From: a virus | Lineage: Duplodnaviria > Caudoviricetes | IMG/VR virus record: IMGVR_UViG_3300032269_000163 | Span: 1 to 42,410 of that record | Length of the DNA stretch: 42,410 bases | Strand: one strand, 5' to 3' | Part shown: in pieces, positions 135-41,708 of the stretch | Numbering within the stretch: the first letter of the stretch is position 1 | Layout of the letters: every line of letters begins with the position of its first letter | Program-made: the position numbers and the translations under genes | The notes under the pieces: generated by a model | Seen by the model: the letters and a program-made list of their open reading frames with translations, nothing else | Database searches by the model: none | What the model was told of the DNA's origin: nothing

Positions 135-3100
135 GGGTTGTATGTTCCTTTAGCACGTTTGGTGTCACGACTCTTTTTAGCTTTAGCTTCAAGCTCTTTA
201 GCCCGTTTTTCTCTAGCCAATTCTTTTTCAGTTTTAGCTTTGATGTCAAGTTGTCTAGCAAGAAGTTTAGTTGTACCGCCCTCTTCTTCACCAACAGCAG
301 ACATAACAGGAGATACTTGTGGTATTTGTTTTACAGCGTACTCACCTACATCACCAGCAATGTCTTCAAACTCATCGTCTGGGTGGTAAATAGGTTTGCC
401 TGTAAATATTTTTTTGTTGATAGCAAGTTGACCTAGTGTTAACAACACAGGGTTAAAAGTAAACACAGGCCAGACTAAAGCGCTGACATCTTTTTTACCT
501 TCGTATACATCCATACCTGCTTTGAGCAAGTGATATGGACCAGCTCTACGTTGTTCAGCACCTTCACCAAATACGGCTTCAGCCATTTCGTCCATCATAG
601 GATACAAAACTCCCATAGCAACACCAATAGCCAGCATAGAGTCAACGCCTTCTCTAAAGTGAGCACGACCTTCTGGTGTTCTTAAGTTGCGAGGGTCAAC
701 ATCCTTCATGGTATTTACCAATGACTTAACCATGCCATAGTGATACCTAGAGAACAAAGCAATGTTAGGGTTCTTAAGAGTCCAAGCAAGACCACGACTA
801 CCTAACACCTCAGAGGGCATACGATAGTTAGGCATGTGTCTTTCAGCTTCTGCAATAGCGTCTTTTAATTCCATCTTAACGCCAGTGCTTTTCTCTTGCC
901 TAGCCATGATTTCACGAATGTATTGAACGTACATTACATCACGGGTAAACCACATAGCTTTATTAGAAGCGTTAGAAATACCGTTGTACAAATCTCCAAC
1001 AGTAGTGCCAAGTTTCTTAGCTAATTGCTTCATGCTTCTTTGCATCTCAGGAGTCTCAAACATTTGCTTCTGAGCTTCTTTTTGGATAGCTTCAAAGTGT
1101 TTGTTCCTAGGATCAGCACCAAGAATAGAACCACCTTCACGCATAATGTCTCGGTAAAACTGGGTTTGATTACCCACATCTCTCCAAGCCAACCTAGCTG
1201 TGTCAGCAAACGTACCTAACCTACGAGGGTCAACCCAACCAGTAAACCCACGAGCATTCCAAAGGTGCATTACCTCATTGAACATGTGGGGTACAGGGTT
1301 CAACATCATGTTCTTGACAAGGGCATTAGTAGCCTTCATCCACATGGTGTTGTCCCACACCTTAGCAAAGTCATCAATGATTGCTGCTGCTTTAGGGTCA
1401 AAAGCCCACCCACGCAATTCAGGTATCAAACCTATGTTTTCAGGTTGTACATAATGTGGAGGTAAAGTTTTAGGATCTTGATCTGGTCCATGAGCAATTT
1501 GCTTAAACAACTCAGACTGTTTAAGATTATTAAGCAGTTCCAACTCACGAGCCATCTTACGAAGACCCATGTTAGCTAGACGAGCAGATGCCTCTGCATC
1601 ATGCCAATAACGATACGGAGAATGCTGCTCAATGGCTGGTACTTTACCGTCAACTACAGTCAGCTCTTTGCCATCTGTAGAAGTAAAAGTATCACCCCGT
1701 TTAAAGTTTAGATCATCACTAAAACCTATCAAACGCTTTTGACCATCTTTCCATTCAAAGATTTGTGTGCCTTGTTTGATCTCACCTTTAGGTGTAGTAA
1801 CGTCTTTAGGTTGTCTATGAAACTCAATGACACGACCATCATTAGTCTGATATACCTTGCGTTCAATAGCAGCGTTAGCTTGTTCAGCAACTTTGTCCCC
1901 AAAAGACATTTTGTTGGAAAACAATTCTTTAAGAGATTCTTTCCAACCTGGTTTTTCTTTTTCGTTAAACATACGAATACGAGATTGACCTGTAGCAAAC
2001 TCTTCACCTACGTCACCACCCATAGCTCTGATCTTACGAACAAGAGCTATGTCCTCAGCATCAATAGCATCTAAAACTTTACCAAGTTCACCGCTAACTT
2101 TGCCACCATTTTCACGGATTAAAAAAGCAGCTTCACGAAGCTTGTCCATTTCTTCAAGACGTCTAGCAGCTTCTTTGTCCCATTTATAACGTTTTATAGG
2201 GTTAAGAATAGAAGGTCTTTCACCTAAATCACCAATAGAAGTTTTGTTATAACCAACAACATGTTCTGAAAGATCTTTAGTTGCAAATGTATTTACTTTG
2301 TGTAAAGCATCGTCCAGTTCTTTCATGTTATTAGGAACAGGGATAGATCGTTCGTTAAGATCTTTTTGGTAGTCATCAAAGAACTTAACAGCTTCTTCTT
2401 CTCCAAAGCGTTCGTGTATGTCTGTAGCGTGTTTAATCATCTCCTCTTCATTAGGAACAGAACGAGGATCAACTTTTTCAAACGCTTTAGCTACAGGTTC
2501 AGATGTTTTAGCAGCAAGATCTGTTTGTTTTGGATGTGTGCCTTCTTCCCACATTGTTCCATAATTTGGATGATCCATAGGATCATTAACTAAGCCAGCT
2601 ATGTCGTCATAATTTAAACCAAACTCATCAACACCCTGTTGAACATCTTTTTGACTTTTGTTCCAACTGTCAATTTCTTCTTTAGAGTACCCGCGTTTTT
2701 TAGACCACTCTTCTGGAGAAAGCTCACCCATTTGGTTCCACAATTCTTTAGGAACTTTAGTATGTTTTTCATCAAACAAAACTTGTCTTGTGCTTTTAAG
2801 AGTGTTTACTAACCAAGCATTAAAATCTTCTAGCGATTTGCCAGTAGCAGCAACTTTGTCAAGAATTGTTTTGCCCCAAAAATTGTCTTTTAGTAAAGAT
2901 ATTTGATCATCACTAATGGGGTGTGTATCACTGTTTGGATAATCTTTTTTAACAAGCTCATCAGGTGCGCTAGGTGTTTTAACTTCTCCTTTAGGAACAC
3001 CAGCAGGTTGATCTTCTGTAACAGCAAAACGTTCGTCACCAGCTTTACGGAGATCACCACTATGCAGCCCAGGTAATTCACCAGGAGGGTTTTCTAACAC

Positions 3101-4069
3101 GTGGTCTTCAGGTATTTGACCAGCACGTTTAGCTTGGTCTACAGCAGCTTCACGATCATGGAAGTTACCACGTTCGTCTACAAACCCTTGATCGTGAGTA
3201 TCAATTGTTTCTGCTTTACGTTCGGGGTCATGCTTAGGACCCATGCGTTCTATTTCACCAGTCTTTTTGTTCCTAATAGCAGCTTCTACCAGAGGAGCTT
3301 TAGCATCACGCTTAGCTTTTTCTTCTTTGACCTTGGTTTTAAAAGCATCAACCTGTTCAGGTGTAGCACCAGGAGGAGGTGGTTGAATATCTTTAACAGG
3401 ATCTTTAGGTTTTGTAGGTTCAGGAGTATGCCCCAATACTCTTTCACCAAGTTTAGTAGGCTTAGTAAATGCACCAGCAGCAGCATCAATAGCCATAGAC
3501 TTAGGATCAAGTACAGGTTGGCCTTCAACAGCACGTTGACCCATACCAATACCAGTCATAACACCAGAGCCTACAGCAGCCTCTTTAAGAGTTTCAGGTA
3601 ATCCTGGACGCATAAACGGACCAACAGAACTACCAGTAAGTGAGCCAGCTAGAGAGTAGCCTGGGTATTGTTGACGTTGTTGTTCTCGTGTACCAACAAT
3701 GTCTGTACCAAACACTTTGTCAAACACACCTTCAAGACTAGTAATGCCTTCATGAGCAAGGTAACCACCTATTACTCCACCAACAATACCTGTAACAGGT
3801 TTAGCCCACACAGGTTGAGGGATAGCCATACCAGCTCTAGCACCAACTAAAGCACCAGGGGTAGCACCCATACTCTCTAAATAAGAAGCCGTAAAAGCAC
3901 CAGCACCTGTAACACGCTCTTCTTGTTTCTTAGTGTAGTCACCAACTGACTTCTCTAAGACACCTTGTTTAGTAGCAGGTTTGGCTTCTACAGGTTGTTT
4001 ATACTGTTCCCAAGGTTTACTTGTTGGTTCAGTAGCAGGTTGTTGGTACTGCTCCCACGGGCCAGCCAT
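131..4069 (-). CDS. Large internal virion / DNA ejection protein (~1312 aa)
   Basis: Last and largest of three genes after the tail hub. Start moved to the ATG at 4069 (TAATG overlap with the upstream stop, GGAG RBS). Two N-terminal PWEQY repeats and a Gly/Ala-rich hydrophobic segment. Confidence 0.7.
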   Translation of the reverse strand: MAGPWEQYQQPATEPTSKPWEQYKQPVEAKPATKQGVLEKSVGDYTKKQEERVTGAGAFTASYLESMGATPGALVGARAGMAIPQPVWAKPVTGIVGGVIGGYLAHEGITSLEGVFDKVFGTDIVGTREQQRQQYPGYSLAGSLTGSSVGPFMRPGLPETLKEAAVGSGVMTGIGMGQRAVEGQPVLDPKSMAIDAAAGAFTKPTKLGERVLGHTPEPTKPKDPVKDIQPPPPGATPEQVDAFKTKVKEEKAKRDAKAPLVEAAIRNKKTGEIERMGPKHDPERKAETIDTHDQGFVDERGNFHDREAAVDQAKRAGQIPEDHVLENPPGELPGLHSGDLRKAGDERFAVTEDQPAGVPKGEVKTPSAPDELVKKDYPNSDTHPISDDQISLLKDNFWGKTILDKVAATGKSLEDFNAWLVNTLKSTRQVLFDEKHTKVPKELWNQMGELSPEEWSKKRGYSKEEIDSWNKSQKDVQQGVDEFGLNYDDIAGLVNDPMDHPNYGTMWEEGTHPKQTDLAAKTSEPVAKAFEKVDPRSVPNEEEMIKHATDIHERFGEEEAVKFFDDYQKDLNERSIPVPNNMKELDDALHKVNTFATKDLSEHVVGYNKTSIGDLGERPSILNPIKRYKWDKEAARRLEEMDKLREAAFLIRENGGKVSGELGKVLDAIDAEDIALVRKIRAMGGDVGEEFATGQSRIRMFNEKEKPGWKESLKELFSNKMSFGDKVAEQANAAIERKVYQTNDGRVIEFHRQPKDVTTPKGEIKQGTQIFEWKDGQKRLIGFSDDLNFKRGDTFTSTDGKELTVVDGKVPAIEQHSPYRYWHDAEASARLANMGLRKMARELELLNNLKQSELFKQIAHGPDQDPKTLPPHYVQPENIGLIPELRGWAFDPKAAAIIDDFAKVWDNTMWMKATNALVKNMMLNPVPHMFNEVMHLWNARGFTGWVDPRRLGTFADTARLAWRDVGNQTQFYRDIMREGGSILGADPRNKHFEAIQKEAQKQMFETPEMQRSMKQLAKKLGTTVGDLYNGISNASNKAMWFTRDVMYVQYIREIMARQEKSTGVKMELKDAIAEAERHMPNYRMPSEVLGSRGLAWTLKNPNIALFSRYHYGMVKSLVNTMKDVDPRNLRTPEGRAHFREGVDSMLAIGVAMGVLYPMMDEMAEAVFGEGAEQRRAGPYHLLKAGMDVYEGKKDVSALVWPVFTFNPVLLTLGQLAINKKIFTGKPIYHPDDEFEDIAGDVGEYAVKQIPQVSPVMSAVGEEEGGTTKLLARQLDIKAKTEKELAREKRAKELEAKAKKSRDTKRAKGTYNP

Positions 4070-5538
4070 TATTGTTTCTCCCAAGAACTAGGATTAGCTG
4101 GATCCCCGCCTTTGTATTTATAACCATTCTGTATAGTACCTACTTTAGGTGCAGCAGGTTTGTTACTAGGAACATCTTTAGCAGGAGCAGGAGCTGCTTT
4201 AACAGGTGGTGGTTCTTTATCCAAAGGAGGTGTATCTACAACAGCTAAACGTTGCTTTAGCTTAGTAAGGATCTGTTCTTTCCTAGGGAAGTCAGGAGCA
4301 TTCTCAAAGGTTTCAATTTCTCTTTGAGTCTGTTGTTTTCTAAAGTCATTTAGTTTGTTAACAGCAGCAGTATAAGCTTTGGTACGCTTGTCTTCTTTGT
4401 ATGCTTTGGGTTCATACCAAGATGCTGTCTTAGATTCAGTCATAAGTTTTTCAGCAGCGTTAACCTGCTCTTGCAAAACTTGCTCTTGTTTTTCACCAGA
4501 TTTAATAATTTTATCGTGTTCCCTAATATAAAAAGCAGCATCTTTGACGTCTGTTTTTTTATCAGCACGAGTAGTTTTACCAGTCTCACGAAGGTTTTCT
4601 ATTTCTTTTTTATGTTTAGCTTTTAAATTTTCAAGCTCTGTTTTGTCAACAGTTTGTTGTTTAAGCTTCTCCATTTCACCTTCATGTTTTTTCTCAAGCT
4701 TTTTTATGTCTTGATTAAACTTTGTTTCAAGTTCTTTTTCTCTAGCAGTAATTTTTTCAGTAGCAATTTTTTCAGCAGATGCAGTGGTCATTGCTTTAAG
4801 GTTTTGAGCAGCAGCTTCTTTGTTGTTTTCAATATCCAATCTGTTTTTAGTAATAAGCTTAGTCTTTTCCAACTCAACAGCTTTTAACTGTTCAGTTAGT
4901 TGGCCTTTAGCATTTAAAAACAATCTGTCAACAATCTGTTTCTTTTGTTCACCAGTAGCTTTAGCCCAATTTTCTGGACCAACTTGTTTTGTAATTAGAT
5001 TTTTAGTTTCTTCAGGAAGGCGATTAAAGTATTCTTCAACCTGTTCATTAGGCACAGCATCTAAAACTACAGCAGCTTTAGCTATAGTCTCACTGTTTTG
5101 TGCAAACTGTTTTGTTTGAGCAGCAAGTTCTTGGGCTTGAATCTTCTCTGCTCTTTCGTACAGTTTGGCTCCTTCTTCAGTTAAGCCAGCGTGCATCTTT
5201 AGAGAAGCAGCTTTTTTAGTAACATCTAAGTCACTAGCTTTTTTACCTTCATCTGATTGCAACCATTGTTGTAATTGAGCAGTAGACTCTTTGTCTCGTG
5301 TGTACTGTATATCTGTAGCAAGCTTTTGAAGACGAGCTGTTTGCAAACGCATCTGCTCTTCTTCTGCCTTAGCAGCCATCATCTCAGGAGCATATTGCTT
5401 AGCAAGACGATTCTCTTGGATCTTACGTTCAGCAGCAGTTTGAGTAAGGTCTTTTACATACGGAGCTTCAGCTACGTTTCTTTGCAACTGCTCAACAGCA
5501 CTACTGCCAGCAGCTAGGTCGGACATCATGTATGGCAT
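4069..5538 (-). CDS. Internal virion / ejection protein, coiled-coil
   Basis: 489 aa, Lys/Glu/Gln-rich and helical. C-terminus is KVGTIQNGYKYKGGDPANPSSWEKQ. Lies in the ejection-gene cluster. Confidence 0.6.
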   Translation of the reverse strand: MPYMMSDLAAGSSAVEQLQRNVAEAPYVKDLTQTAAERKIQENRLAKQYAPEMMAAKAEEEQMRLQTARLQKLATDIQYTRDKESTAQLQQWLQSDEGKKASDLDVTKKAASLKMHAGLTEEGAKLYERAEKIQAQELAAQTKQFAQNSETIAKAAVVLDAVPNEQVEEYFNRLPEETKNLITKQVGPENWAKATGEQKKQIVDRLFLNAKGQLTEQLKAVELEKTKLITKNRLDIENNKEAAAQNLKAMTTASAEKIATEKITAREKELETKFNQDIKKLEKKHEGEMEKLKQQTVDKTELENLKAKHKKEIENLRETGKTTRADKKTDVKDAAFYIREHDKIIKSGEKQEQVLQEQVNAAEKLMTESKTASWYEPKAYKEDKRTKAYTAAVNKLNDFRKQQTQREIETFENAPDFPRKEQILTKLKQRLAVVDTPPLDKEPPPVKAAPAPAKDVPSNKPAAPKVGTIQNGYKYKGGDPANPSSWEKQ

Positions 5539-6119: not shown

Positions 6120-6997
6120 AACAATGTTCCTTTCCAAATACCGTTTAATTGCATTACTTGTCGGTAATCAAGAGTTATTTCTTCTCCAAGATCACCACCA
6201 GCCATGCCAGATATGTCTCGTATTGCTACTAGGAACATATCCCCAAAATCATTTTTAATAGCTATTGCATTAGGATTCTTAGAATGGTTAACTAGATACC
6301 CCGCAGGAGTTCTAAGACCACTAAGTCTCATAGGAGCAATGATGCTGTCTTGTTGAATTACAGCAGTAGAGAACATCCCTTTGCCTTGAATAGGAGAGTT
6401 TCCAGCACAGATGCTGTAAGTACCTTCAGGGAAAGAAATGCGATCTTTTTTGTAATTAACCGCTATCTCGATGTCTTCTAGAGTCCAACCAGACTCTTCA
6501 ACCATCTTTAAGAAGTCTTGTCGATCTTCTTCGTGCAAAGGATATTGTTCAAGCAGTTTTTGTTCTTGGTGTTGCTTAAAAATATCTGGGGACTTAAACA
6601 GTATTGACTCAAGATATTCAACGTCAGTACTATTTGTTACGTAGATATTTTGCCACACAACATCCTCTAATGTATAGCCTGTTTTGCTTCCAGCCTTGGC
6701 TATAAACATATAAGGAGCTACCAGTGTTTGTACTAATCCTGCTCCATCCACAACACAAATGCTTCCTTTAAGAAGCACGTTCATGTGTTCAGATACGTGC
6801 TCTTGACCAACAATAAGAGTACCTTTGGGGTAATGGGCTTCCCTAATATACAGACCCCCACCAAACCTATGGATAACAGAATTAGGAGCTTGTTCGTTTT
6901 CTAAAAGAACTTTGGTTAACTCTAGTTTGCTTTCGTCAGTACGTATGTCAAATCCTTCTTTAACAACAACCGAGTTAACAGCTTCTTCAAGAATCAT
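6104..6997 (-). CDS. Cupin-like domain fused to a C-terminal SET-domain methyltransferase
   Basis: N-terminal HRFGGGLYIRE..PKGTLIVGQEHVSEHMN is cupin-like. C-terminal SPIQGKGMFS, LVNHSKNPN and GEEITLDY match the SET signatures GxG, NHSxxPN and ELxxDY. Confidence 0.8.
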   Translation of the reverse strand: MILEEAVNSVVVKEGFDIRTDESKLELTKVLLENEQAPNSVIHRFGGGLYIREAHYPKGTLIVGQEHVSEHMNVLLKGSICVVDGAGLVQTLVAPYMFIAKAGSKTGYTLEDVVWQNIYVTNSTDVEYLESILFKSPDIFKQHQEQKLLEQYPLHEEDRQDFLKMVEESGWTLEDIEIAVNYKKDRISFPEGTYSICAGNSPIQGKGMFSTAVIQQDSIIAPMRLSGLRTPAGYLVNHSKNPNAIAIKNDFGDMFLVAIRDISGMAGGDLGEEITLDYRQVMQLNGIWKGTLLCQPQ

Positions 6998-8463
6998 TTT
7001 CTATACCTTCCACCGCCAACACCTTGTTCTTGATCCATCTCACCAATCCTAAAATCTATCTCAGCCCCATCAAGTCTAAGTGGACAGTTGCTTGTAGACA
7101 AAAACTCCCAAGCCCTACGTCTATCAGCACCACCTAAATAAAGTTGAGATCTAGAAGCATTCAAGTCAACAGACCTATAGCTAGACCAAGTGTTGTAATC
7201 ATCCCCAGAATGACGTACTTGCAAGGTCCCAGGTGTCTTGTCACCAACAATCTCAAGTCTTCCATAGAACTTACGCTTAGTAGTCCCGTTGTCTGCAATG
7301 TCAGTAACAGTACGACAGTAGATAGGTTGGTTGTTATCCCTGTACGTATTCACATCAAAATAATACAGGGTAGCTGTATCGTCATCTAATGTGTAGGCTG
7401 TACCATTCAATGCAGCAAAAAATGCTGGACGAAAGTAAGACTCTTGGTACGTACCAGGGTTAGGTTGATCACTGCTTTGAATAGAGAACTGAGTCCATGA
7501 ATACCAAGTCTTCTCATTTAAGTCATACACCAAAGTCTTTTGGGTGTTATGCAATGTCAAGATGTACAGGGTATGTCCATTTATGGTGTAGCAGTAAGCA
7601 GTCACCTGACCTAGGTTATCAGCCTCTAAATGACGGTCTACAGCCGATGTAGAGACACGTATGGGGGATACCCCATCCATAAGGTACACAGAACGGCTAT
7701 TGGTCTTTGTAGACCCTACCCACAACACCGTGTTACTAGTAGCAACAATACTATCCCCACTAGCACAACCAACCTCAGAAGTGTAGGTAGAAGCTACAGC
7801 CAAAGGAGAACCAGTTGGGTTAGCAGCATCGTAATAAAACTGAGTGCTAACAGCACCAAAAGCTATTAAATAGTTTAAGTGTTTAGCAATACCAACCAAA
7901 GTGTCAGTAGTCTGTTCAAAGCTTAGGTAACTAAGAGCATCCCAAGTAGTTGGGTCACCAACGTTAGAGTTGTATATGCGGTTGTTAGTAGTAGCAATAA
8001 ACAGGTAGTTGTCTAAATACACAACCCCAGACACATACGGTCCTGAAGGTAACGTAGTCATAGACACAGATGAACCAGATTGGTTATACAAGTACCCGTC
8101 TACTTTGTTGTGAAAAAACAAATAGGTGTCAAGGAACGTCTTAACAAAATAACTTTGACTAGTTGAAGAAGACGTAGTACCCAAGGTACTTACAGCATAA
8201 GAAGAGCTAGGATTGACTTGGTAGATGGTGTTATTAATAACAGCTACAAGCTTGTTGTTAAACGCAGCTAACCCTTGGCTAGGTGTGTATGCAGGAGGTG
8301 TAACAGATACGATCTGTTTAGCAGCTACAAGCCCAGGACGTTTAATGAACTCACGCTTCTGATCTCTTGTTTCAAAGAAACAATTAGATGAATAAGAGTC
8401 CTTAGCAAAACTACCCGTCCTGCTTTCAATAGGTTGGGTAAGCGGTATACGTTCTGTAGCCAT
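6994..8463 (-). CDS. Tail hub / packaged-DNA stabilisation protein (P22 gp10-like)
   Basis: 489 aa, beta-rich. C-terminal HSGDDYNTWS..LG..RRRAWEF pattern. Follows the head-tail adaptor. Confidence 0.7.
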   Translation of the reverse strand: MATERIPLTQPIESRTGSFAKDSYSSNCFFETRDQKREFIKRPGLVAAKQIVSVTPPAYTPSQGLAAFNNKLVAVINNTIYQVNPSSSYAVSTLGTTSSSTSQSYFVKTFLDTYLFFHNKVDGYLYNQSGSSVSMTTLPSGPYVSGVVYLDNYLFIATTNNRIYNSNVGDPTTWDALSYLSFEQTTDTLVGIAKHLNYLIAFGAVSTQFYYDAANPTGSPLAVASTYTSEVGCASGDSIVATSNTVLWVGSTKTNSRSVYLMDGVSPIRVSTSAVDRHLEADNLGQVTAYCYTINGHTLYILTLHNTQKTLVYDLNEKTWYSWTQFSIQSSDQPNPGTYQESYFRPAFFAALNGTAYTLDDDTATLYYFDVNTYRDNNQPIYCRTVTDIADNGTTKRKFYGRLEIVGDKTPGTLQVRHSGDDYNTWSSYRSVDLNASRSQLYLGGADRRRAWEFLSTSNCPLRLDGAEIDFRIGEMDQEQGVGGGRYRK

Positions 8464-27430: not shown

Positions 27431-27463
27431 CTACTCCGCTATGTTCTTAGTAACAACCTTGGT

Positions 27464-28030: not shown

Positions 28031-28058
28031 GTTCCTAGTAACTTTCAAGGGGTTCATC

Positions 28059-29415: not shown

Positions 29416-29560
29416 ACACTGGTTCATAGAATCAAATGATTACGATGACACGCTGACTAGCGTTAACATCGACACCCCTTTTGAAGAAGAGGGGGATAGC
29501 CACAAGCAACTGGAGCTGTTCACAACAGAAGAACCACAGCTTGAAGACATCAGTTATTAG
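29402..29560 (+). CDS. Small acidic protein (52 aa, not in ORF track)
   Basis: MTITKHWFIESNDYDDTLTSVNIDTPFEEEGDSHKQLELFTTEEPQLEDISY. Confidence 0.55.
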   Translation: MTITKHWFIESNDYDDTLTSVNIDTPFEEEGDSHKQLELFTTEEPQLEDISY

Positions 29561-29583
29561 TAACAAACTTGAAAGAAAATTTT

Positions 29584-29900: not shown

Positions 29901-30350
29901 ATGGATGCTCACATGATGTCCACTTTGTATGCTGCTGCTACTGAGAGTCTTGTCTCAGATGCTTCAGCTACAAGTACATTCGAGAAGATGATAGCTGTAG
30001 CGTTTACGCACAGTTCAGTTGATACGTTTGCTAAAGACCTGCGTGACACTGAGAAACAAATCAAGAAAGAGTATGAAGTCAGTTCGATGCCTGGTCCTTG
30101 GAGATCAGCCAAGTCTGTAATCCACGGTGCTATGAAGCTCAGCATCAAGCTCATTGATGACAACGGAAACTATTGCGGTAAAACATTTCTTCAAAACAAA
30201 ATCCGAGAACTGAAGACTCCCAAGGAAGAAATCAGTGCTGAAGACTACGCCAACAAAGTTATTAAGAACTTGATGAATGTCCCTGAAGGTATGGATGCTC
30301 TCAAAGTGTTCAAGCTTGTGAAGGAATTTGTGAATGCGAGTGGTAAGTAA
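29901..30350 (+). CDS. Hypothetical protein coupled to the VWA gene
   Basis: GGGAG RBS before MDAHMM; TAATG overlap with the next gene. Confidence 0.7.
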   Translation: MDAHMMSTLYAAATESLVSDASATSTFEKMIAVAFTHSSVDTFAKDLRDTEKQIKKEYEVSSMPGPWRSAKSVIHGAMKLSIKLIDDNGNYCGKTFLQNKIRELKTPKEEISAEDYANKVIKNLMNVPEGMDALKVFKLVKEFVNASGK

Positions 30351-32140
30351 TGCTGACTAAAGGCATTGAGGTAATGAGATACATACGTGCAAGTGCTGGC
30401 AGAGCTGGCATTTCCGTTGTATTTGAAGACGCTAACCAACCTAGACATGATGGCAAAACCATCTATTTGCCTAGGATTGTTGCTAAAACCACAGAGCTTG
30501 AACTCAAACAGCTAATGGCATCAACGGATCACGAAGTGGCCCATGATCGTTACAGCTCGTTTGAGGTTCTCAAGAAAAAAGAACTTCATCCGCAAGGTAT
30601 GTTGATGTTCGTATGGAACTTCTTAGAAGATTCCAGAATCAACTACATCGAAGCTTTGGAGTATCGTGGTTTTAAAGACAACTGGGATGATTGCAGCTCT
30701 ATCTTGATTGAGGACATCCTTAAGAAAGCTAAGGGTCAAACATCACCAGCAGCAGTGATGATGACAGCTCTGTTTTGTTGGGAGGTAACCTTAACAGGTT
30801 CTATCTTCCCTCAGATAGAACTTGCTGTAAGCAAAGCAACTCCCAATAAAAAGGTTCTGGATGTTCTTAATAACTTTACTGATCGTCTTGCTGATTGCTA
30901 TTCGATCTTGGATAAAGAATTAGGCTCTGAATCAACCTACCAATTGGCTCTAGACATCCTCAAAGAACTTGGTGAGGAATGCAAGGAAGAACTGAAGCCT
31001 AAGCCTGTCAAGGGTGATGGTGACGGTAAAGTTGCTAAACCTGGTGGCAAAGAAAAAACAGAAAGCTCTGGTTCATCTGAAGAAAAAGGTGATGGTGGAG
31101 AGAAATCTCCTCCTAAAGACAAAGAGTACAAAGTCATCAACATCAAAGTTTCTGAGGAAGACTTGGAAAAGTTTTCTCTTTCTATGCACAACGAAGATGG
31201 CACAGACATGGGTAAGGTCGGCATCAACTTTGAGCCTGTGAAAGAGAAAGGCGGTTGGGATCTAACTGATTACGACAATTTTATTGTTGTGGATTACCCC
31301 AAACAAACAAGTCCAGCAGACTATTTCTTAGTATGTAAAAAAAGCAACTTTCTCAGAGAGTATCGTAATGAAGTAGAGCCTAAGCTTGTGTCTCAAGAGA
31401 ACTTTGCTCAACAGGTTCGTAAGCTGATCCAAATCAAAGCAAGAGTGCAACGACAGTACGGTGTTAAGAAAGGCAAACTAGATCAATCTAGGTTGTCTCG
31501 TATTTGTTTTGATGCACCTGGTTTCAACGAGCGTGTGTTTAAGAACAAAATTGACAACAAGACACTGGATGCTGCTATCACAGTATTGGTTGACATGTCT
31601 GGCTCTATGCAGGGCATGAAAGCATACTATGCACTGGCTTCTACATTGTTAGTTAATGAAGTTTGTTCAACTTTAAACATTCCTCTTGAAATTGTGGGCT
31701 TTACTGATGGAAAACTTAACTTATATACTGATTGGTGTCCAGTCATGTATATTTACAAAAGTTTTTCTGATTTAAAAGTTACTCCTGATAAATTGAAAGA
31801 GTATTTTGAGATAAGTAGTCAATGGATGCTTGGAAACCCTGATGGCGAAAACATTCTTTGGGCGCATGATCGACTGGTCAAACGCAAAGAGAAGAAACGC
31901 TTGTTAGTGGTTATGTCTGATGGTAGTCCAGCAGCTTCTAAAGCATCATCAGGAATAGGTAGGTTTACAGAGAAAGTAATCAGAGAGATAGAAGCTGCAA
32001 AGATTGTTGACATCTATGGTTTGGGTTTGTGTAGTACGGCAGTACAGACTTACTACAAAACACACAGCGTAGTCAATCAACCGCAAGAAATACCAAGCAA
32101 GTTGTTAGAACTCATAGAAAGGAAGATCATTAATGTCTGA
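30350..32140 (+). CDS. CobT-like protein: N-terminal HExxH domain and C-terminal VWA domain
   Basis: DHEVAH and NFLEDSRI; charged linker; GKLD..RL; MIDAS LVDMSGS; VMSDGSP. Confidence 0.85.
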   Translation: MLTKGIEVMRYIRASAGRAGISVVFEDANQPRHDGKTIYLPRIVAKTTELELKQLMASTDHEVAHDRYSSFEVLKKKELHPQGMLMFVWNFLEDSRINYIEALEYRGFKDNWDDCSSILIEDILKKAKGQTSPAAVMMTALFCWEVTLTGSIFPQIELAVSKATPNKKVLDVLNNFTDRLADCYSILDKELGSESTYQLALDILKELGEECKEELKPKPVKGDGDGKVAKPGGKEKTESSGSSEEKGDGGEKSPPKDKEYKVINIKVSEEDLEKFSLSMHNEDGTDMGKVGINFEPVKEKGGWDLTDYDNFIVVDYPKQTSPADYFLVCKKSNFLREYRNEVEPKLVSQENFAQQVRKLIQIKARVQRQYGVKKGKLDQSRLSRICFDAPGFNERVFKNKIDNKTLDAAITVLVDMSGSMQGMKAYYALASTLLVNEVCSTLNIPLEIVGFTDGKLNLYTDWCPVMYIYKSFSDLKVTPDKLKEYFEISSQWMLGNPDGENILWAHDRLVKRKEKKRLLVVMSDGSPAASKASSGIGRFTEKVIREIEAAKIVDIYGLGLCSTAVQTYYKTHSVVNQPQEIPSKLLELIERKIINV

Positions 32141-33257
32141 ACCAGAAACAAAATCAAAGGTCGAAGACCTTGTTAAATCAAAAATCAAAGAGGCAATGGA
32201 AAAACGTAAAGTCTCAACAACAAAAGTGATGGTTGATGAACTCCACGATAGCGCTGTAGACATAGTTGTTGCAGCTCCTCCTCCTTTTGAACGTCCTACG
32301 CTCAAACCAGGTCAAATCTATTTCTCTGACTTGTTCAAAGAGTTTTGGATTACTGACAAAGATGACTTTGGTGTTACTACGTTCAATGAAACTACTTGGG
32401 ACGAACGTATTGCTTCATTTGTTCCTAGTAGCAATTCTGCCTACGTCTTTGACGAGAAATTGGCTGCAAACATTCTTAGAGCATGGGAGTTAAATGAAAA
32501 AGTACTCTGTTACGGGCCTACGGGGGCTGGTAAATCTAGTCTTATTGAGCAGCTTTGTGCTCGTACTGGTCGCCCTTTCGTTCGGGTTAATTGTACTGGG
32601 GACATGGATACCTCAATGATCTTTGGTCAGTTAACGGCTAAGGATGGTTCAACAATCTGGGTAGACGGTGCTGTAACAGAAGCTGTACGTTACGGTGCTG
32701 TGTTTGCTTGGGATGAGTGGGACGTAACTCCTCCAGAGATCTCTATGGGTCTTCAGTGGCTCTTAGAGGACGAAGGCAAACTCTTCTTAAAAGAAATGCC
32801 TGGAAGTACCAAAGACAAACAAATTGTCCCTCACGAGCATTTCCGTATCGTAGCTATTGGCAACACACAAGGTCAAGGCGATGACACAGGAGCACATGCT
32901 GGTACTAACGTTCAGAACTCTGCAACTCTTGATCGCTTTGGCACAGCAGTCTTTGTTGACTACCTCGAAGCTTCTATCGAAGAGAAGATGTTGACCAACA
33001 AGTTCCCAGACACTATCACCAAGAAAGCAGCTAAGGAGCTTGTCAAACTTGCTAACCTGATCCGTCAAGGTTACAAAGCAGGTCAGTTCAACTTAACGAT
33101 GTCTCCACGTTCATTGTTTGGTATCTGCAACAAAGTTTCTTTTGGCATGACCTTAAGAACTGCATTCAATCTTGTTTACGTGAACAAGTTAAACGACACA
33201 CAAAGTAAGGTTGCTGACGAGTTGTTTACCAAGATTTACGGCAACAAAGAAGTCTAA
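32133..33257 (+). CDS. CobS/CbbQ/MoxR-type AAA+ ATPase
   Basis: Walker A GPTGAGKS, Walker B FAWDE, ATLDRF arginine finger, MSPR sensor. Confidence 0.9.
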   Translation: MSEPETKSKVEDLVKSKIKEAMEKRKVSTTKVMVDELHDSAVDIVVAAPPPFERPTLKPGQIYFSDLFKEFWITDKDDFGVTTFNETTWDERIASFVPSSNSAYVFDEKLAANILRAWELNEKVLCYGPTGAGKSSLIEQLCARTGRPFVRVNCTGDMDTSMIFGQLTAKDGSTIWVDGAVTEAVRYGAVFAWDEWDVTPPEISMGLQWLLEDEGKLFLKEMPGSTKDKQIVPHEHFRIVAIGNTQGQGDDTGAHAGTNVQNSATLDRFGTAVFVDYLEASIEEKMLTNKFPDTITKKAAKELVKLANLIRQGYKAGQFNLTMSPRSLFGICNKVSFGMTLRTAFNLVYVNKLNDTQSKVADELFTKIYGNKEV

Positions 33258-33313: not shown

Positions 33314-34105
33314 ATGATCAAACACAAAATACTCCTTGACAACGCTCCGTCCGTAGTAGGACAGCAAGTACACATCAATCACGCAGACTGCGAAGCAGGT
33401 ATAGACACCAAACGTAGGCTGTATATCAAACGTGAAGCTACTGCAATCGTGGCATATTGCCATCATTGCAATCAAAAAGGCTTTGTTAAAGATGTTGACG
33501 ACAGATTGTCTACCTGGATCAACAAACCAGCAGCAACTGTTACTAGTAGCAATAAGCCTGTGATAGCTTCCCTTACAACTGAAGGTAGGGTATGGCTGCA
33601 CAGTCACTATTGCGACACAACACACAGCAACTTCAACGGCATAGCAGGGGAGCGACACAAAGTCGCTCTCACATTACACGACACAGACAACCAGCCGATA
33701 GGCTGGCAGATCAGGAACCTTGCACCTAACGCAACACCCAAGTACACAACACATTACACCAGCAGCAGCTCCAAAGGAGATGCAGCTTGGTTTAAGGGCA
33801 ACAACACACTAGTCATAACCGAAGACTACCTCAGTGCTTACCGAGTGAACAACGACACAGGCTATACATCTGTGGCGTTACTAAGAACAGCACTGTCAGA
33901 TAAAACACTAAGACAAATACATGACTCAAACTTTGAGTACGTTGTTATTTGGCTTGATCCCGATGAAGCAGGTATACAAGGAGCAGCAAAGGCATACAAA
34001 AAACTAAACCACTTCCTACCATCAACAACAAAGATTATCGTGCTTGGCATAGATAAAGAACCCAAACAATGCACACCAGCAGAGCTGGAAAGCATACTCA
34101 TTTAA
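33314..34105 (+). CDS. DNA primase (zinc-binding + TOPRIM)
   Basis: H..C..YCHHC zinc site, VITEDYLSA and WLDPDEAG TOPRIM motifs. Confidence 0.85.
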   Translation: MIKHKILLDNAPSVVGQQVHINHADCEAGIDTKRRLYIKREATAIVAYCHHCNQKGFVKDVDDRLSTWINKPAATVTSSNKPVIASLTTEGRVWLHSHYCDTTHSNFNGIAGERHKVALTLHDTDNQPIGWQIRNLAPNATPKYTTHYTSSSSKGDAAWFKGNNTLVITEDYLSAYRVNNDTGYTSVALLRTALSDKTLRQIHDSNFEYVVIWLDPDEAGIQGAAKAYKKLNHFLPSTTKIIVLGIDKEPKQCTPAELESILI

Positions 34106-34114
34106 AGGAAATAG

Positions 34115-35380
34115 ATGGACTACGATGTTCTCTACCTTTGCTCTCAAAGCAAAGAGAACCTAAACAAATACAGGCGGTACATCAAACCGCATGTAGTGGT
34201 CAAAGAAACCAATGTCATCTTAGATGGCATGGACAAATACTACAAAACATTCCCAGGTGTAACTGAGTTCAACTGGGAATCTTTCTCTGCGTTCCTAATA
34301 GCAGATCAAAGCAAACGACTCACAGATGACTCAATCGTCAAGCTTCGCATGACATTGACCAAAGCTAAGACGTTTGTCCCGCACCATGCTCACGAAGAAG
34401 TAATCAAGACTCTTATAGAGTTGGACTACCTTGCTCAGATCATGGAGGAATGTGAGAAGGTCAAGGAAGGCTCTAGCGACCTTGAACACGTACACATACT
34501 TGCAACCAATGCTCTTAAAGATGTGGAGAGATACATTGAAAAAGACGAGTTGTTTGTTTCTGCTGATTTGTCTAGTATTGCTGATCGAATTACTAGCTCT
34601 GGCTATGAGTGGCGATTGGATGTTCTTAATCGTAGCCTCGGTCCTTTACGGACTGGTAATTTTGTTATTGTGGCTGCTAGAGTTGAGGTAGGCAAGACAA
34701 CGTTTTTGGCTAGTGAGGTTAGTTACCTTGCACAGCAACTACCTGTAGACAGGCCAGTTGTATGGGTCAACAACGAAGAGGAATCTTCTGTTGTGTTCTT
34801 CAGGATTGTTCAAGCTGCATTAGGTCAAGAATCTAAAACAATCATTGCTGACTCTAAAACAGCTATGGACAGCTACACATCTCTCATGGGTGGTAACAAA
34901 GACAAGATACGTGTTACTAAAGACATGAACCATGTTCGTGACTTAGAAACGTTGTTTCGTGAGGTTAACCCAGGTTTGATTGTGTTTGACCAGCTTGACA
35001 AAGTAGATGGCTTTAACAAGTCTGACGACAGGGAAGACATCAAGCTTGGCAAGATCTACAAGTGGGCAAGGGAACTTGCTAGAAACTATGGCCCAGTTAT
35101 TGCTGCATCACAGTTGTCTGCAACAGCAGTGGATATGAAAGACCCTCCGTTTATTGGCTTAGACGCTTTGCGTGGCTCTAAGACTGACAAACCAGGTGAA
35201 GCTGACGTAGTTCTAACAATCGGCAAGTACAAAGAACCCAAAAGTCCAGAGGAAGAAATGATCCGCACAATCAATGTTCCTAAGAACAAACTACCTGGTG
35301 GTGGTCCTAAGCACATGGAATCCGAACGTCATGGACAGTTTCTTGTCACTATTGATCCTATTCGTGCAAGGTATGAGTGA
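34115..35380 (+). CDS. DnaB-like replicative helicase
   Basis: AARVEVGKTT, NNEE, VFDQLDK, AASQLS and EADVVL motifs. Confidence 0.9.
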   Translation: MDYDVLYLCSQSKENLNKYRRYIKPHVVVKETNVILDGMDKYYKTFPGVTEFNWESFSAFLIADQSKRLTDDSIVKLRMTLTKAKTFVPHHAHEEVIKTLIELDYLAQIMEECEKVKEGSSDLEHVHILATNALKDVERYIEKDELFVSADLSSIADRITSSGYEWRLDVLNRSLGPLRTGNFVIVAARVEVGKTTFLASEVSYLAQQLPVDRPVVWVNNEEESSVVFFRIVQAALGQESKTIIADSKTAMDSYTSLMGGNKDKIRVTKDMNHVRDLETLFREVNPGLIVFDQLDKVDGFNKSDDREDIKLGKIYKWARELARNYGPVIAASQLSATAVDMKDPPFIGLDALRGSKTDKPGEADVVLTIGKYKEPKSPEEEMIRTINVPKNKLPGGGPKHMESERHGQFLVTIDPIRARYE

Positions 35381-35837: not shown

Positions 35838-37759
35838 CCATAGCATTTGCAGCAATTGACGTTGAGACAACACTCAACGGCAACGAAGACGTAGGACTAG
35901 CTCATCCTATGCACCCTGACAACAAAGTCGTAGCTTATGGTATGTGTCTAAAATCACCACACACTACATATGATTGTGATACGTTTGATCTTTACATAAA
36001 CACTCTTGATAAAGAGACCATTCTTTGCGGGCATAACATTTCTTTTGATCTGATGTATCTGTACAAAGAAAGCACAGCCTTAAAGTACAAACTACAAACA
36101 CACAAGATCTGGGACACACAACTAGCAGAGTACATCCTGTCTGGTCAACGTACCAAATTTTCTAGTTTAGACGAGTTATCAGTAAAGTATGGTCTACCTA
36201 TCAAAGACGATGGAATTAAAAAGTATTTTCAAGCAGGTCTTGGCTCTGACAAGATTCCTTCTGAAGAACTAATCCCATACCTAGAACAAGACGTAGCTAA
36301 CACCCGTACTATTGCTAAAAAACAATACGAACTAGCTGTTGCTAGTGAACAAATTTGGCTGATTGAAAGCCAGATGGAAGCACTCCATGCAACCACAGAG
36401 ATGCAATTTAACGGGCTGCACATAGACAAAACAAGGCTGGACACATACACAGTTGAAGTCGTAGACAAGTATGTGGAAGTCAAGCTTGACCTAGAAGCAC
36501 TAGCAGCAGGTCATGTAGAAGACATCAACAGCCCTAAACAATGGTCACAGTTTTTCTTTGGTGGCAAGAAGAAAGTCAAAGTCAAAGAAGAAGTGGGTGT
36601 CTACAAGAACGGTAACACCAAATACAAGCTTGTAGAGAAGACAGTTGCTATCAAGCCGTTTATTGCTTACGTACCAGACCCAGAGAAAGTATCTGCAAAA
36701 ACAGGTCAGATCTCAGTTGATGACACAGTACTCAACGACATGTTGAAGCACACGTTTGATGCTAAAGCAATTGCAATCATCAATGGTTTGTTGAAGTACA
36801 GAGAGTTGTCTAAGCAGTTGTCAACGTATGTGCAAGGTTTAAGCAAACACATCATTGGTGACTTCATACACGGCAAACTCAACCACACAGCAACAGTCAC
36901 AGGTCGTTTATCGTCAACCAACCCTAATTTACAAAATATCAGTAATAACCCGATTAAACAAATTTTTAATTCGAGATATACTGATGGTGTAATTATTGAG
37001 GTTGATTTTAATCAACTAGAGGTTGTGGCTCTTGCTCATGTTACTAAGGACAAACAGTTGATAGCTGACATTAGTAGCGGGGTAGACATTCACAGTGCTC
37101 TGTACAAAGACATGTTTGGCAGGATGCCAACCAAGGAGGAAAGGAAGCCATTCAAGTCTCGGACGTTTCAGTTGATCTACGGTGCAGGTGCTAAGGCTAT
37201 TGCCAAACAAGCAGGTTGTACCTTAGAAGAAGCCACAAAGTTTGTAGATGTGTTCTATGGTCGTTACAAATCAGTAGCTAAATGGCACGTAGAGTTTGCA
37301 AAAATGGTTGAAATAAATGCGATAAACGGTGTGAACGAAGAAGGGTTTATGGAGAAGTTCAGAACCTACGTTCATCAGACTGAGACAGGCAGGAAGTATT
37401 GCTTCTCAGAGTATTACAACGAGAGTAGTTGGTCAACAAGAATGTACACGTTCAGTCCTACAGAGTTGAAAAACTACCCAGTGCAAGGTTTAGCTACTGG
37501 AGATATTGTCCCAATGATGTTGGGCATTATCTTTAGGCGGCTAATAGGCAGAGATGATGTGAAGATGGTTAACACCATTCACGATTCTCTAATGTTCGAT
37601 GTCAAGTCTGAATCAGCAGACACTTTTATTACGGAGATCACAACAATTCTTCAATGTACCCACATCTACTTTGAAGAAACATTCAAGAAGCCACTGGCTC
37701 TCAAGCTCAATGCAGGAGCATCAGTTGGTAAAAATTGGTTTGATATGAAAGAACTTTGA
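35834..37759 (+). CDS. polA: Family A DNA polymerase with 3'-5' exonuclease
   Basis: ExoI DVETT, ExoII HNISFD, ExoIII YLEQD, TGRLSS..PNLQN, motif A DFNQLE, motif B RKPFKSRTFQLIYG, motif C IHDS. Confidence 0.95.
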   Translation: MTIAFAAIDVETTLNGNEDVGLAHPMHPDNKVVAYGMCLKSPHTTYDCDTFDLYINTLDKETILCGHNISFDLMYLYKESTALKYKLQTHKIWDTQLAEYILSGQRTKFSSLDELSVKYGLPIKDDGIKKYFQAGLGSDKIPSEELIPYLEQDVANTRTIAKKQYELAVASEQIWLIESQMEALHATTEMQFNGLHIDKTRLDTYTVEVVDKYVEVKLDLEALAAGHVEDINSPKQWSQFFFGGKKKVKVKEEVGVYKNGNTKYKLVEKTVAIKPFIAYVPDPEKVSAKTGQISVDDTVLNDMLKHTFDAKAIAIINGLLKYRELSKQLSTYVQGLSKHIIGDFIHGKLNHTATVTGRLSSTNPNLQNISNNPIKQIFNSRYTDGVIIEVDFNQLEVVALAHVTKDKQLIADISSGVDIHSALYKDMFGRMPTKEERKPFKSRTFQLIYGAGAKAIAKQAGCTLEEATKFVDVFYGRYKSVAKWHVEFAKMVEINAINGVNEEGFMEKFRTYVHQTETGRKYCFSEYYNESSWSTRMYTFSPTELKNYPVQGLATGDIVPMMLGIIFRRLIGRDDVKMVNTIHDSLMFDVKSESADTFITEITTILQCTHIYFEETFKKPLALKLNAGASVGKNWFDMKEL

Positions 37760-38316: not shown

Positions 38317-38523
38317 ATGGAAACACGTAAACCAGGTCGTCCTAAAAAGGTAGACGGAGCAACACCGCCACCTAAACCTAAAACCAAGATCTACAAAGCA
38401 ATTGGTTTAGAAAAAGAAGTGTACGAAAAGCTTGATGTTATTAGGAACAGGTACGCTGTTGAGTTGGGGTTTGTAATGTCCTTCTCACAAACAATCTCTT
38501 ACTTAACCAGGGACCTTAAATGA
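38317..38523 (+). CDS. Small DNA-binding protein (AT-hook-like + ribbon-helix-helix-like)
   Basis: RKPGRPKK followed by KAIGLEKEVYEKL..SFSQTISYL. Confidence 0.55.
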   Translation: METRKPGRPKKVDGATPPPKPKTKIYKAIGLEKEVYEKLDVIRNRYAVELGFVMSFSQTISYLTRDLK

Positions 38524-38705: not shown

Positions 38706-39398
38706 ATGAGAGCACTCATTGACGGAGACATTGTTGTTTACCGTGGAGCTGCGTCAGCAGAGAAAGAAGAACAATGGGTAGCCCTAGCAAGGGCTGACCA
38801 AATGGTTCAAGACATCCTTGCAGACACAGGTGCTACGTCTTACAACGTGTATCTCACAGGTACGAGTAACTTTCGTAGGGAGATTGCTCCTAGCTACAAA
38901 GCTAATCGTCCTGATGAAAGACCTACACATTGGCAAGCAGTGCGTGAGTTCTTAGTAACACACCACAAAGCACAGATATGTGATGGGTTTGAAGCAGACG
39001 ATGAGATGGGTGTGCAGCAAGACAAGGAAACAATGACAACAGTAATTTGTTCTATAGACAAAGACCTGTTGCAGATCCCAGGTAGGCACTACAACTTTGT
39101 GAGGAAAGAACACAAGGTCGTAGATCGTGACCAAGGTCTAAAGCACTTGTATCTACAGAGTCTCATAGGTGACAGGAGTGACAACATCATTGGTGTAGCT
39201 GGCATTGGACCAGTAAAGGCAGAGCAAGCTTTAGCAGAGCTGCTGCCTGAAGAGTGGTACGACAAGTGCCGAGAACTCTATAACGATGACGAACGCTTTC
39301 ATCTCAACATGAAACTGCTGTACATCTGGCAGAAACCTAACGACATGTGGGAACCCCCTAACAAGGACAACAATGATCAACAGATCCATACTGCCTAG
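38706..39398 (+). CDS. 5'-3' exonuclease (T7 gp6 / FEN-like)
   Basis: LIDGD, YKANR, EADD, DKDLLQ and GDRSDNI.GV.GIGPVKA motifs. Confidence 0.92.
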   Translation: MRALIDGDIVVYRGAASAEKEEQWVALARADQMVQDILADTGATSYNVYLTGTSNFRREIAPSYKANRPDERPTHWQAVREFLVTHHKAQICDGFEADDEMGVQQDKETMTTVICSIDKDLLQIPGRHYNFVRKEHKVVDRDQGLKHLYLQSLIGDRSDNIIGVAGIGPVKAEQALAELLPEEWYDKCRELYNDDERFHLNMKLLYIWQKPNDMWEPPNKDNNDQQIHTA

Positions 39399-39698: not shown

Positions 39699-40099
39699 TG
39701 CCTAGACCTAAACGACACAACCCTGCGGGGTATCGCAGCGGCTTAGAGATTAGGTTTCAAGCTGCTTGCGAAGCAAAAGGGTGGAAGCTTGCTTACGAAC
39801 AAGACAAGATCAAGTACGTAATACCAGCAAGCAATCACACCTACACACCAGACTTCACTGTTACTAAGAACGTCTACATAGAAACCAAAGGTCTATGGAC
39901 AGGAGCTGACAGAAAGAAGGCTGCACTCATCAAAGAACAACATCCAGACATCACCATTCTTTACGTGTTGCAACGCAACCAGGGCATAACCAAGAAGAGT
40001 AAGACCACTTACCTTGATTGGGCAGCTAAGAACGGATTGGATGCTTGTGTGTTTTCTAACACAGAACATTGGCAAAACTTTATTATGAGGCACTTATGA
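39698..40099 (+). CDS. T7 endonuclease I-like Holliday junction resolvase
   Basis: YRSGLE, YTPDF, IETKG and TTYLDWA motifs. Confidence 0.9.
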   Translation: MPRPKRHNPAGYRSGLEIRFQAACEAKGWKLAYEQDKIKYVIPASNHTYTPDFTVTKNVYIETKGLWTGADRKKAALIKEQHPDITILYVLQRNQGITKKSKTTYLDWAAKNGLDACVFSNTEHWQNFIMRHL

Positions 40100-40356
40100 A
40101 AATATCCCAAGAAGCAAACGAACACAATCTTAAACAGATTAACGCTATGCAAGAACGTTGGAAACAAATCTCTGAAATAACTTTAGCAGCACTTGCTAAG
40201 CCAGCAACACCGCCTACCAGTACGTTTAACAACGGTTCGTATAAGACTGGGGATGGTGAAAAACTTCAGCCTGTACGACCTGGTAGCGAAGACCACAAAA
40301 GATGGCCCTCAAAAGGATTGCTCTCGGATGTTCCTAATAACAGAGGTGAAGCATGA
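40096..40356 (+). CDS. Hypothetical protein
   Basis: ATGA overlap; RPGSEDH..WPS motif. Confidence 0.6.
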   Translation: MKISQEANEHNLKQINAMQERWKQISEITLAALAKPATPPTSTFNNGSYKTGDGEKLQPVRPGSEDHKRWPSKGLLSDVPNNRGEA

Positions 40357-41643: not shown

Positions 41644-41670
41644 TATAATTGCTTTGCAGTTGTCCTTAAG

Positions 41671-41708
41671 GGGAGACAAGTTACTAATAACTTGCTCCCC
41701 TATTTTTA
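41671..41708. terminator. Terminator between convergent genes
   Basis: GGGAG(A)CAAGTTA-CTAA-TAACTTGCTCCC followed by TATTTTT. Confidence 0.65.

What the first reader, a model, noticed from the sequence alone, without database searches (positions are those of the whole stretch)
2327..41691. Genome-wide dispersed palindrome (T)GTTMYTARKAAC(A), mostly embedded in coding sequence
Seen: a self-complementary 12-mer GTT[AC][CT]TA[AG][GT]AAC (ideal form GTTACTAGTAAC at 20862 and 24988) occurs at least 22 times: 2327, 4162, 8230, 11972, 12917, 16177, 17874, 20862, 24988, 27443, 28031, 28579, 29553, 30258, 30863, 33877, 35276, 38437, 38948, 39860, 40330, 41680. One-off variants occur at 1103, 3269, 6225, 7732, 13582, 32421, 33539 and 37040. 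Most are flanked by T and A, giving a 14-bp palindrome. A hand estimate at ~40% GC gives about 0.1 expected copies, though I derived the consensus from these same sites. Most copies lie inside unrelated genes on both arms, and density is highest in the early region (six sites in 27.4-30.9 kb). Established: symmetric degeneracy is typical of a dimeric protein site, and dispersed intragenic palindromes are used by chromosome organisers (matS/MatP, SBS/SlmA, NBS/Noc, parS/ParB). Inference: this phage marks its whole genome for a phage or host protein, possibly for protection, localisation, ejection, packaging or sequestering a host regulator.
Basis: partly seen in the sequence, partly recalled or inferred. 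Interest (0 to 1): 0.9.

Follow-up and report, generated by a model that had tools for sequence, protein, structure and literature searches.

The report
Phage DNA lattice with novel reader
This phage and dozens of distant relatives keep the same short palindrome about every 1-2 kb, even inside genes, and it is likely the docking site of a small phage protein of no known family that is predicted to be a dimer and would coat the phage's own DNA.

Summary
The palindrome is real: 22 exact and 9 one-off sites, far above protein-preserving shuffles (20 vs 0.64), with silent positions under selection (0.90 vs 0.52). Sites are spaced more evenly than random, ignore promoters, and their halves do not co-vary, so this looks like a double-stranded protein site, not a hairpin. 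It occurs in 80 of 80 terminase relatives and in distant phages with other virion modules. One gene tracks it: ORF 29901-30350 (149 aa, conserved RSAKS motif), directly upstream of a vWA-peptidase/MoxR ATPase pair. It is the only tested family found in 7 of 7 distant motif-bearing genomes and in none of 7 motif-free comparators. It is predicted to be a homodimer (0.79 vs 0.01) and has no known fold. DNA binding is inferred, not shown. A host reader stays open: the host is unknown, and one unrelated incomplete phage contig (G054) has arrays of the motif without the gene. The scan has noted phage lattices on other DNA, mostly with ParB-like readers; no ParB was found here.

The parts
29901..30350 (+). 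Candidate reader: 149-aa helical protein with conserved RSAKS and GK motifs (an upstream ATG at 29877 would give 157 aa); predicted homodimer; no known family
30350..32140 (+). CobT-like vWA protein with an N-terminal HExxH motif; its start codon overlaps the stop of the candidate reader
32133..33257 (+). CobS-like MoxR AAA+ ATPase; overlaps the vWA gene by 8 nt
2327..2338 (.). exact site, in 131-4084
4162..4173 (.). exact site, in 4069-5538
8230..8241 (.). exact site, in head-closure gene; same position in 10 of 13 genomes
11972..11983 (.). exact site, in 11672-12097
12917..12928 (.). exact site, in 12754-13992
16177..16188 (.). exact site, in 16042-16203
17874..17885 (.). exact site, intergenic, just after the major capsid stop
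20862..20873 (.). perfect palindrome, in 20058-20888; same position in 8 of 13 genomes
24988..24999 (.). perfect palindrome, in terminase large subunit; same position in 11 of 13 genomes
27443..27454 (.). exact site, intergenic, just downstream of a terminator-like hairpin
28031..28042 (.). exact site, directly after a terminator-like hairpin and T run
28579..28590 (.). exact site, in 28363-28650
29553..29564 (.). exact site, over the stop of 29402-29560
30258..30269 (.). exact site, inside the candidate reader gene
30863..30874 (.). exact site, in vWA gene; same position in 10 of 13 genomes
33877..33888 (.). exact site, in primase; same position in 10 of 13 genomes
35276..35287 (.). exact site, in helicase; same position in 13 of 13 genomes
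38437..38448 (.). exact site, in 38275-38523
38948..38959 (.). exact site, in exonuclease; same position in 11 of 13 genomes
39860..39871 (.). exact site, in endonuclease I; same position in 12 of 13 genomes
40330..40341 (.). exact site, in 40069-40356
41680..41691 (.). exact site, between 41365-41643 and 41706-42341
1103..1114 (.). one-mismatch site
3269..3280 (.). one-mismatch site
6225..6236 (.). one-mismatch site
7732..7743 (.). one-mismatch site
13582..13593 (.). one-mismatch site
32421..32432 (.). one-mismatch site
33539..33550 (.). one-mismatch site
37040..37051 (.). one-mismatch site

Best explanation
The palindrome is a selected, genome-wide set of sites that is likely bound by the phage's own RSAKS protein (ORF 29901-30350), a predicted dimer that would coat the phage DNA every 1-2 kb to mark, organise and shield it rather than to switch promoters. 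Shown: the sites, their selection, spacing and co-occurrence with the gene. Predicted: the dimer, with conserved R68, S69, K71, G93 and K94 left outside its interface, so each subunit could read one half-site. Inferred: DNA binding (about 0.6), a coverage/self-marking role, and that the co-translated vWA-peptidase/MoxR pair would load or strip the dimer (weakest step).
For: Silent positions in sites are conserved 0.90 vs 0.52 expected; 8 of 27 aligned site positions are kept in 8-13 of 13 genomes while 16 are private, i.e. both retention and turnover. Smallest gap 338 bp (P=0.0003) and gap CV 0.71 (P=0.03) against random placement. No promoter bias over 609 sites in 20 genomes: 97 vs 80.5 upstream of starts, 538 vs 566 inside ORFs. 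The motif is in both arms of phages with different virion modules. Loci fetched by the protein alone carry it: 17 of 17 and 2 of 2; 62 of 62 distinct family members in loci of 5 kb or more have a site, 435 vs 1.4 expected (not independent, many close kin or motif-selected). The family is the only tested one in 7 of 7 distant motif-bearing genomes and 0 of 7 motif-free ones; ICP2 has the vWA, MoxR, primase, helicase, polymerase and SSB-like genes at a distance like that of motif-bearing G055/G056 but neither gene nor motif. MW202796 and QDWS535 share the virion module but have neither. Homodimer score 0.79, best control 0.01, runs agree in at least 95% of contacts, pLDDT at least 87; the mark was reached by 20 of 30 known pairs and 1 of 23 single chains. 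K94 invariant, R68/S69/A70/K71 at least 90% conserved in 105 members; residues 61-108 have 9 K/R vs 3 D/E.
Against: No binding data. No Pfam, PHROG or PDB family and no DNA-binding fold found; the whole protein is neutral (21 K/R, 20 D/E). G054 (66 kb, 63% complete) has 51 sites in intergenic arrays and a vWA/MoxR pair but no RSAKS hit. The motif barely changes where the supposed reading helix does (YSSAKS in G055, YTSAKG in G056), and the A/C choice at position 5 follows GC content, so no helix-site covariation was shown. The gene is co-inherited with the replication module, so the pattern may reflect shared ancestry or shared hosts. In the L093 group the gene lies about 1.1 kb upstream of the vWA gene, with small genes between. 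The host is unknown.
Confidence: 0.5

Rival explanations
1. The sites recruit or titrate a conserved host DNA-binding protein (a nucleoid-occlusion, partition or SOS-type factor), and the RSAKS gene merely travels with phages of those hosts.
For: The motif is nearly constant across phages of 37-59% GC with very divergent RSAKS proteins. Unrelated contig G054 carries the same word 43 times exactly. The C variant equals the pattern I recall for Verrucomicrobia LexA (paper not held). An earlier scan note (e1-10067683) describes such a case on other DNA.
Against: Zero sites in two Burkholderiales megaplasmids and one plasmid (5.3 Mb in all), 1 in E. coli against 6 for the control; at most 2 per genome in 151 genomes of G001's phylum; no bacterial-looking multi-copy contig among the 80 of 117 metagenome loci that came with flanks. 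The site breaks the E. coli SlmA rules (PMC3020112). Only 1 window site fits the recalled LexA pattern. None of these tests used the true host.
Confidence: 0.25
2. RSAKS reads the sites but as a transcription roadblock or repressor, like mycobacteriophage stoperators.
For: Small excess of sites near terminator-like hairpins: 9 vs 2.8 downstream, 12 vs 3.4 upstream (conserved sites, not independent). Sites lie in or beside the RSAKS gene in several genomes. Integrase-like ORFs in G035 and G036 by inspection.
Against: Stoperators are asymmetric, oriented and in promoters or intergenic gaps (PMC9283540); these sites are symmetric and mostly intragenic, with no promoter bias. No integrase or repressor hit in the window (94% complete).
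Confidence: 0.14
3. Another protein of the early module (vWA-peptidase, MoxR, primase or the SSB-like 37761-38267) reads the sites.
For: vWA and MoxR are in 7 of 7 distant motif-bearing genomes and also in G054.
Against: ICP2 and SSU5 have both genes and no motif; these families are not known to me as sequence-specific dsDNA binders (own knowledge).
Confidence: 0.09
4. The word is a by-product of codon or amino-acid usage, or an RNA/DNA hairpin.
For: Most intragenic sites sit in one frame (Val-x-x-Asn).
Against: Protein-preserving shuffles give 0.64 vs 20; silent positions are constrained; the degenerate positions are complementary in only 9 and 10 of 22 sites.
Confidence: 0.02

Closest known systems
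SlmA-SBS and Noc-NBS nucleoid-occlusion systems (PMC3020112, passages read)
   Same: A 12-14 bp palindrome dispersed over a replicon, outside promoters, read by a dimer for a structural purpose.
   Different: Host chromosomal systems; SBS needs a purine at position 3 and G at 5 (here T and C/T); no SlmA or ParB/Noc gene in the phage; density here is about one per 1.4 kb.
Cluster A mycobacteriophage repressor and stoperators (PMC9283540, passages read)
   Same: More than twenty sites across a phage genome for a phage-encoded protein.
   Different: Stoperators are asymmetric 13-mers, oriented with transcription, in promoters and intergenic gaps, bound by an HTH monomer; here symmetric, mostly intragenic, candidate reader a dimer of unknown fold.
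Phage MoxR AAA+ / vWA-metallopeptidase pair of jumbo phages (PMC7824862, passages read)
   Same: Same two-gene architecture (30350-33257), with an HExxH motif before the vWA part.
   Different: Proposed there for virion assembly; no third gene or DNA-site lattice in the passages read.
ParB/KorB-like phage lattices noted earlier in this scan (e1-9786039, e1-6291562, e1-9737828; unreviewed AI notes)
   Same: Dispersed intragenic palindromes in phages with a phage-encoded candidate reader.
   Different: Those readers are ParB-like and the palindrome changes between phages; here no ParB domain was found and the word is nearly fixed across very distant phages.

Membership tests
SlmA-SBS | 12-bp palindrome dispersed outside promoters | tested here: met
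SlmA-SBS | purine at position 3 and G at position 5 needed for binding (E. coli) | tested here: not met
   PMC3020112; the site has T at 3 and C/T at 5
SlmA-SBS | TetR-like SlmA gene in the element | tested here: not met
   NF007015: no match in G000
SlmA-SBS | sites on the host chromosome, absent from the terminus | tested here: inconclusive
   host unknown; proxies negative
ParB-parS / Noc-NBS / KorB | ParB/Srx domain protein encoded | tested here: not met
   no ParB hit among 64 ORFs (PHROGs) or 49 ORFs (Pfam); 1 of 105 RSAKS members hit a ParB PHROG at E 0.008; the window is 94% complete
   best Z 6.7 (rmsd 3.5, 78 aligned) for the whole model and 4.3 (rmsd 3.7, 65 aligned) for residues 36-110, to unrelated helical bundles
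Stoperator repressor system | more than twenty sites across the phage genome | tested here: met
Stoperator repressor system | asymmetric, transcription-oriented sites in promoters or intergenic gaps | tested here: not met
   palindromic; 19 of 22 in ORFs; no promoter bias
Stoperator repressor system | blocks transcription elongation | not testable with these tools
   needs a transcription assay
LexA SOS box, Verrucomicrobia type (pattern recalled, paper not held) | TGTTC-N4-GAACA in promoters | tested here: not met
   1 match in the window; distant relatives fit the letters but sites are not promoter-biased
MatP-matS (13-bp form with 3-base spacer, recalled) | 3-base spacer | tested here: not met
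   0 matches in the window
MoxR AAA+ / vWA-metallopeptidase pair | adjacent MoxR-type ATPase and vWA protein with N-terminal HExxH | tested here: met
   PHROG 249 and 17276/1576; HExxH visible in the translation
MoxR AAA+ / vWA-metallopeptidase pair | remodels a protein substrate | not testable with these tools

The most novel reading that the evidence does not exclude
A three-gene phage module - a new-fold DNA-binding dimer, a vWA-peptidase and a MoxR ATPase - works as an ATP-driven, site-programmed system that marks the whole phage genome as self. It rewrites any newly acquired virion genes with its 14-bp site, and it loads and clears the dimer to protect or organise the DNA during infection.
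Probability: 0.25. Interest if true: 0.85.

Novelty: new variant of a known kind. Interest (0 to 1): 0.66.

Why it matters
If right, it names a new DNA-binding fold with its exact site, and shows that a widespread group of roughly 45-kb phages pays a coding cost to keep a chromosome-organiser-like lattice, re-seeding it after virion-module swaps. It would also offer a first candidate substrate for the 'CobS/CobT' (MoxR/vWA) pair that is common in phages and usually annotated as cobalamin synthesis. The binding claim can be tested directly with one 149-aa protein and one oligonucleotide.

Tried and rejected
Hairpin or cruciform: halves do not co-vary. Longer repeat or mobile element: flanks carry no shared sequence beyond 14 bp. 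A MerR-like or winged-helix fold for residues 36-110, suggested by eye: no such match surfaced (absence is not exclusion). ESM Atlas: only unnamed viral clusters at 0.93-0.96, DUF3102 at 0.80 is a weak lead. PPpW-3 gp59, a weak Foldseek hit: no profile support (probability 0.6%), and its apparent palindrome and that of VP41s3/ICP2 are codon and collagen-repeat effects. No cultured phage with the RSAKS gene was found. Host identification failed: the one genome scan gave a single 2.5-kb MAG contig. Literature searches for the motif or such a system found nothing relevant; the library lacks most subscription papers, and no supplements were read. Sequence look-ups in earlier findings were empty.
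Full report
What the window is. The window is a whole IMG/VR record (G000, linear, 94% complete) of an uncultured tailed phage with two arms: virion genes on the minus strand (portal, capsid, GroES, terminase, head closure, fibres) and early/replication genes on the plus strand (vWA 'CobT', MoxR 'CobS', primase, DnaB helicase, family A polymerase, exonuclease, endonuclease I). No phage record matches at DNA level. The portal is closest to MW202796, Alcaligenes phage QDWS535 and HTVC023P-type phages; the polymerase and vWA are closest to Vibrio phage ICP2. Host and habitat were not determined.

Observation. Synonymous shuffles that keep every protein give 0.64 on average and at most 4 in 1,000, against 20; altered patterns (backwards, longer spacer, swapped centre) give 0. 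The smallest gap among the 31 sites is 338 bp (P=0.0003) and the gap CV is 0.71 (P=0.03). A matrix from 529 distinct site contexts in relatives shows information only over 14 bp. The two degenerate pairs are complementary in only 9 and 10 of 22 sites, so base pairing within a strand is not what is kept.

Selection. In 22 core genes of 13 genomes, codons whose third base lies in a site are identical in 0.90 of 3,964 pairwise comparisons with the same amino acid, against 0.52 expected from the same codons elsewhere (comparisons are not independent). Of 27 aligned site positions, 8 are shared by 8-13 genomes and 16 are private. Over 609 sites in 20 genomes there is no bias to gene starts and only a slight intergenic excess; a small excess lies near terminator-like hairpins (9 vs 2.8 and 12 vs 3.4). 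The early arm is denser, 0.84 vs 0.57 per kb.

Range. 80 of 80 terminase-related loci have the site; 19 of 19 near-complete relatives have 9-25. They also revealed groups with other virion modules (Zobellviridae-like by inspection and by terminase) and 39-59% GC that carry the same word, with A or C at position 5 following GC content. The motif is present in both arms of those genomes, so it follows the early module or the host, not the virion genes. MW202796 and QDWS535, which share the virion module, have none.

Candidate reader. The family has 323 representatives at 50% identity, with near-invariant E51, K55, P64, R68, S69, A70, K71 and invariant K94. Loci fetched through the protein, not the motif, all have sites: 17 of 17 and 2 of 2. 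All 4 complete genomes checked with the profile have the gene; the 6 incomplete ones gave no hit. With profiles for every window ORF conserved in at least 12 of 14 close genomes, this is the only family found in 7 of 7 distant motif-bearing genomes (by the broad profile A2; 5 of 7 by the narrow one) and in none of ICP2, MEP401, VP41s3, QDWS535, MW202796, PPpW-3 and SSU5, which have 0-1 exact sites. ICP2 is the useful control: its vWA, MoxR and polymerase are as far from the window as those of motif-bearing G055 and G056. AlphaFold gives a confident helical model (pLDDT 87.5) with viral uncharacterised neighbours only and no clear PDB match. Two copies are predicted to pair (0.79; best control 0.01; runs agree in at least 95% of contacts; pLDDT at least 87; mark reached by 20 of 30 known pairs and 1 of 23 single chains), through the N- and C-terminal helices, leaving R68, S69, K71, G93 and K94 outside the interface. 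Some members carry a basic insertion just before the RSAKS helix. A two-fold protein with conserved exposed basic residues fits a two-fold site; this step is inference.

The operon. The stop of the RSAKS gene overlaps the start of the vWA gene, which overlaps the MoxR gene by 8 nt. Iyer et al. describe a MoxR/vWA-metallopeptidase pair in jumbo phages and propose a role in virion assembly (PMC7824862, passages). MoxR/vWA pairs remodel protein substrates (own knowledge), so the RSAKS dimer is a natural candidate substrate, but this is untested, and in the L093 group the gene lies about 1.1 kb further upstream. G034, G035 and L588 have two family members.

Against this reading. There are no binding data. 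G054, a 66-kb, 63% complete contig with no tblastn link to the clade around its sites, has 51 sites, 50 of them in intergenic arrays within 12 kb, plus a vWA/MoxR pair, and no RSAKS hit. It is the only viral record with extended arrays. It may be coincidence, since SSU5, which I judge similar in gene content, has its own different palindromes, or it may point to a host factor. The word hardly changes where the RSAKS helix does, so covariation was not shown. Host tests were proxies only: none in three Burkholderiales plasmid records and one in E. coli, at most two per genome in 151 genomes of another phylum, and no bacterial-looking multi-copy contig in 80 of 117 metagenome loci; a sparse chromosomal system would escape the last test.

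Comparison with known systems. It works like SlmA-SBS or Noc-NBS in being a dispersed palindrome outside promoters, but the site breaks the measured E. coli SlmA preferences (PMC3020112, passages) and no such gene is present. It resembles stoperators in number but not in symmetry or position (PMC9283540, passages). The Verrucomicrobia LexA pattern is recalled; that paper was not held and PMC8565304 (passages) only cites it. My searches found no paper on this motif or system; no supplements were read. Earlier unreviewed notes of this scan report phage lattices on other DNA, mostly with ParB-like readers; they prompted the search for ParB and the host test and are not evidence here.

Verdict. 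A real, selected, clade-spanning lattice with a specific, testable candidate reader of unknown fold. Reader identity about 0.6; the full self-marking model 0.5 at most; host reader 0.25. New variant of a known kind, interest 0.66.

Noticed in passing
L082 (Alcaligenes phage QDWS535, OK172329.1) 25208-48105: A different 14-bp palindrome, TCCTAAYRTTAGGA, 10 exact copies plus variants, mostly between early genes and just upstream of starts.
   Followed up: partly
G054:C1 54484-66000 (L422): 50 copies of the C form of the motif in intergenic clusters of 2-9 between small genes of an otherwise unrelated large phage contig with a vWA/MoxR pair and two adjacent repressor-like ORFs.
   Followed up: partly
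W07 (Salmonella phage SSU5, NC_018843.1): Own multi-copy palindromes, AAACAA-N-TTGTTT (11 copies) and TAAGT-N4-ACTTA (8 copies).
   Followed up: no
window 38275-38523 and 41044-41292: Two small ORFs that look by eye like AT-hook/ribbon-helix-helix regulators; patchy in relatives, no Pfam hit.
   Followed up: partly
window 26320-26560: AT-rich gap between the two arms with TA repeats, a C run and partial half-sites; a candidate genome end or origin region.
   Followed up: no
window 6104-6997: Two-part ORF (tail-fibre-adhesin-like N-terminus by PHROG, C-terminal part that looks SET-like by eye) among virion genes, full length in only 4 of 12 relatives.
   Followed up: no
G034:C1 1157-1660 and 4536-5096; G035:C1 27593-28111 and 31459-31992; L588: Two paralogues of the RSAKS family per genome, one as the first early gene with an altered helix motif.
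   Followed up: partly
G035:C1 35138-36490; G036:C1 44350-45375: Integrase-like ORFs (with a small excisionase-like ORF in G035) between MoxR and primase, by inspection only; possible temperate members useful for finding the host.
   Followed up: no
window 17888-19489 and 21506-23608: Major capsid, the following gene and the portal have no exact site in any of 13 genomes.
   Followed up: no
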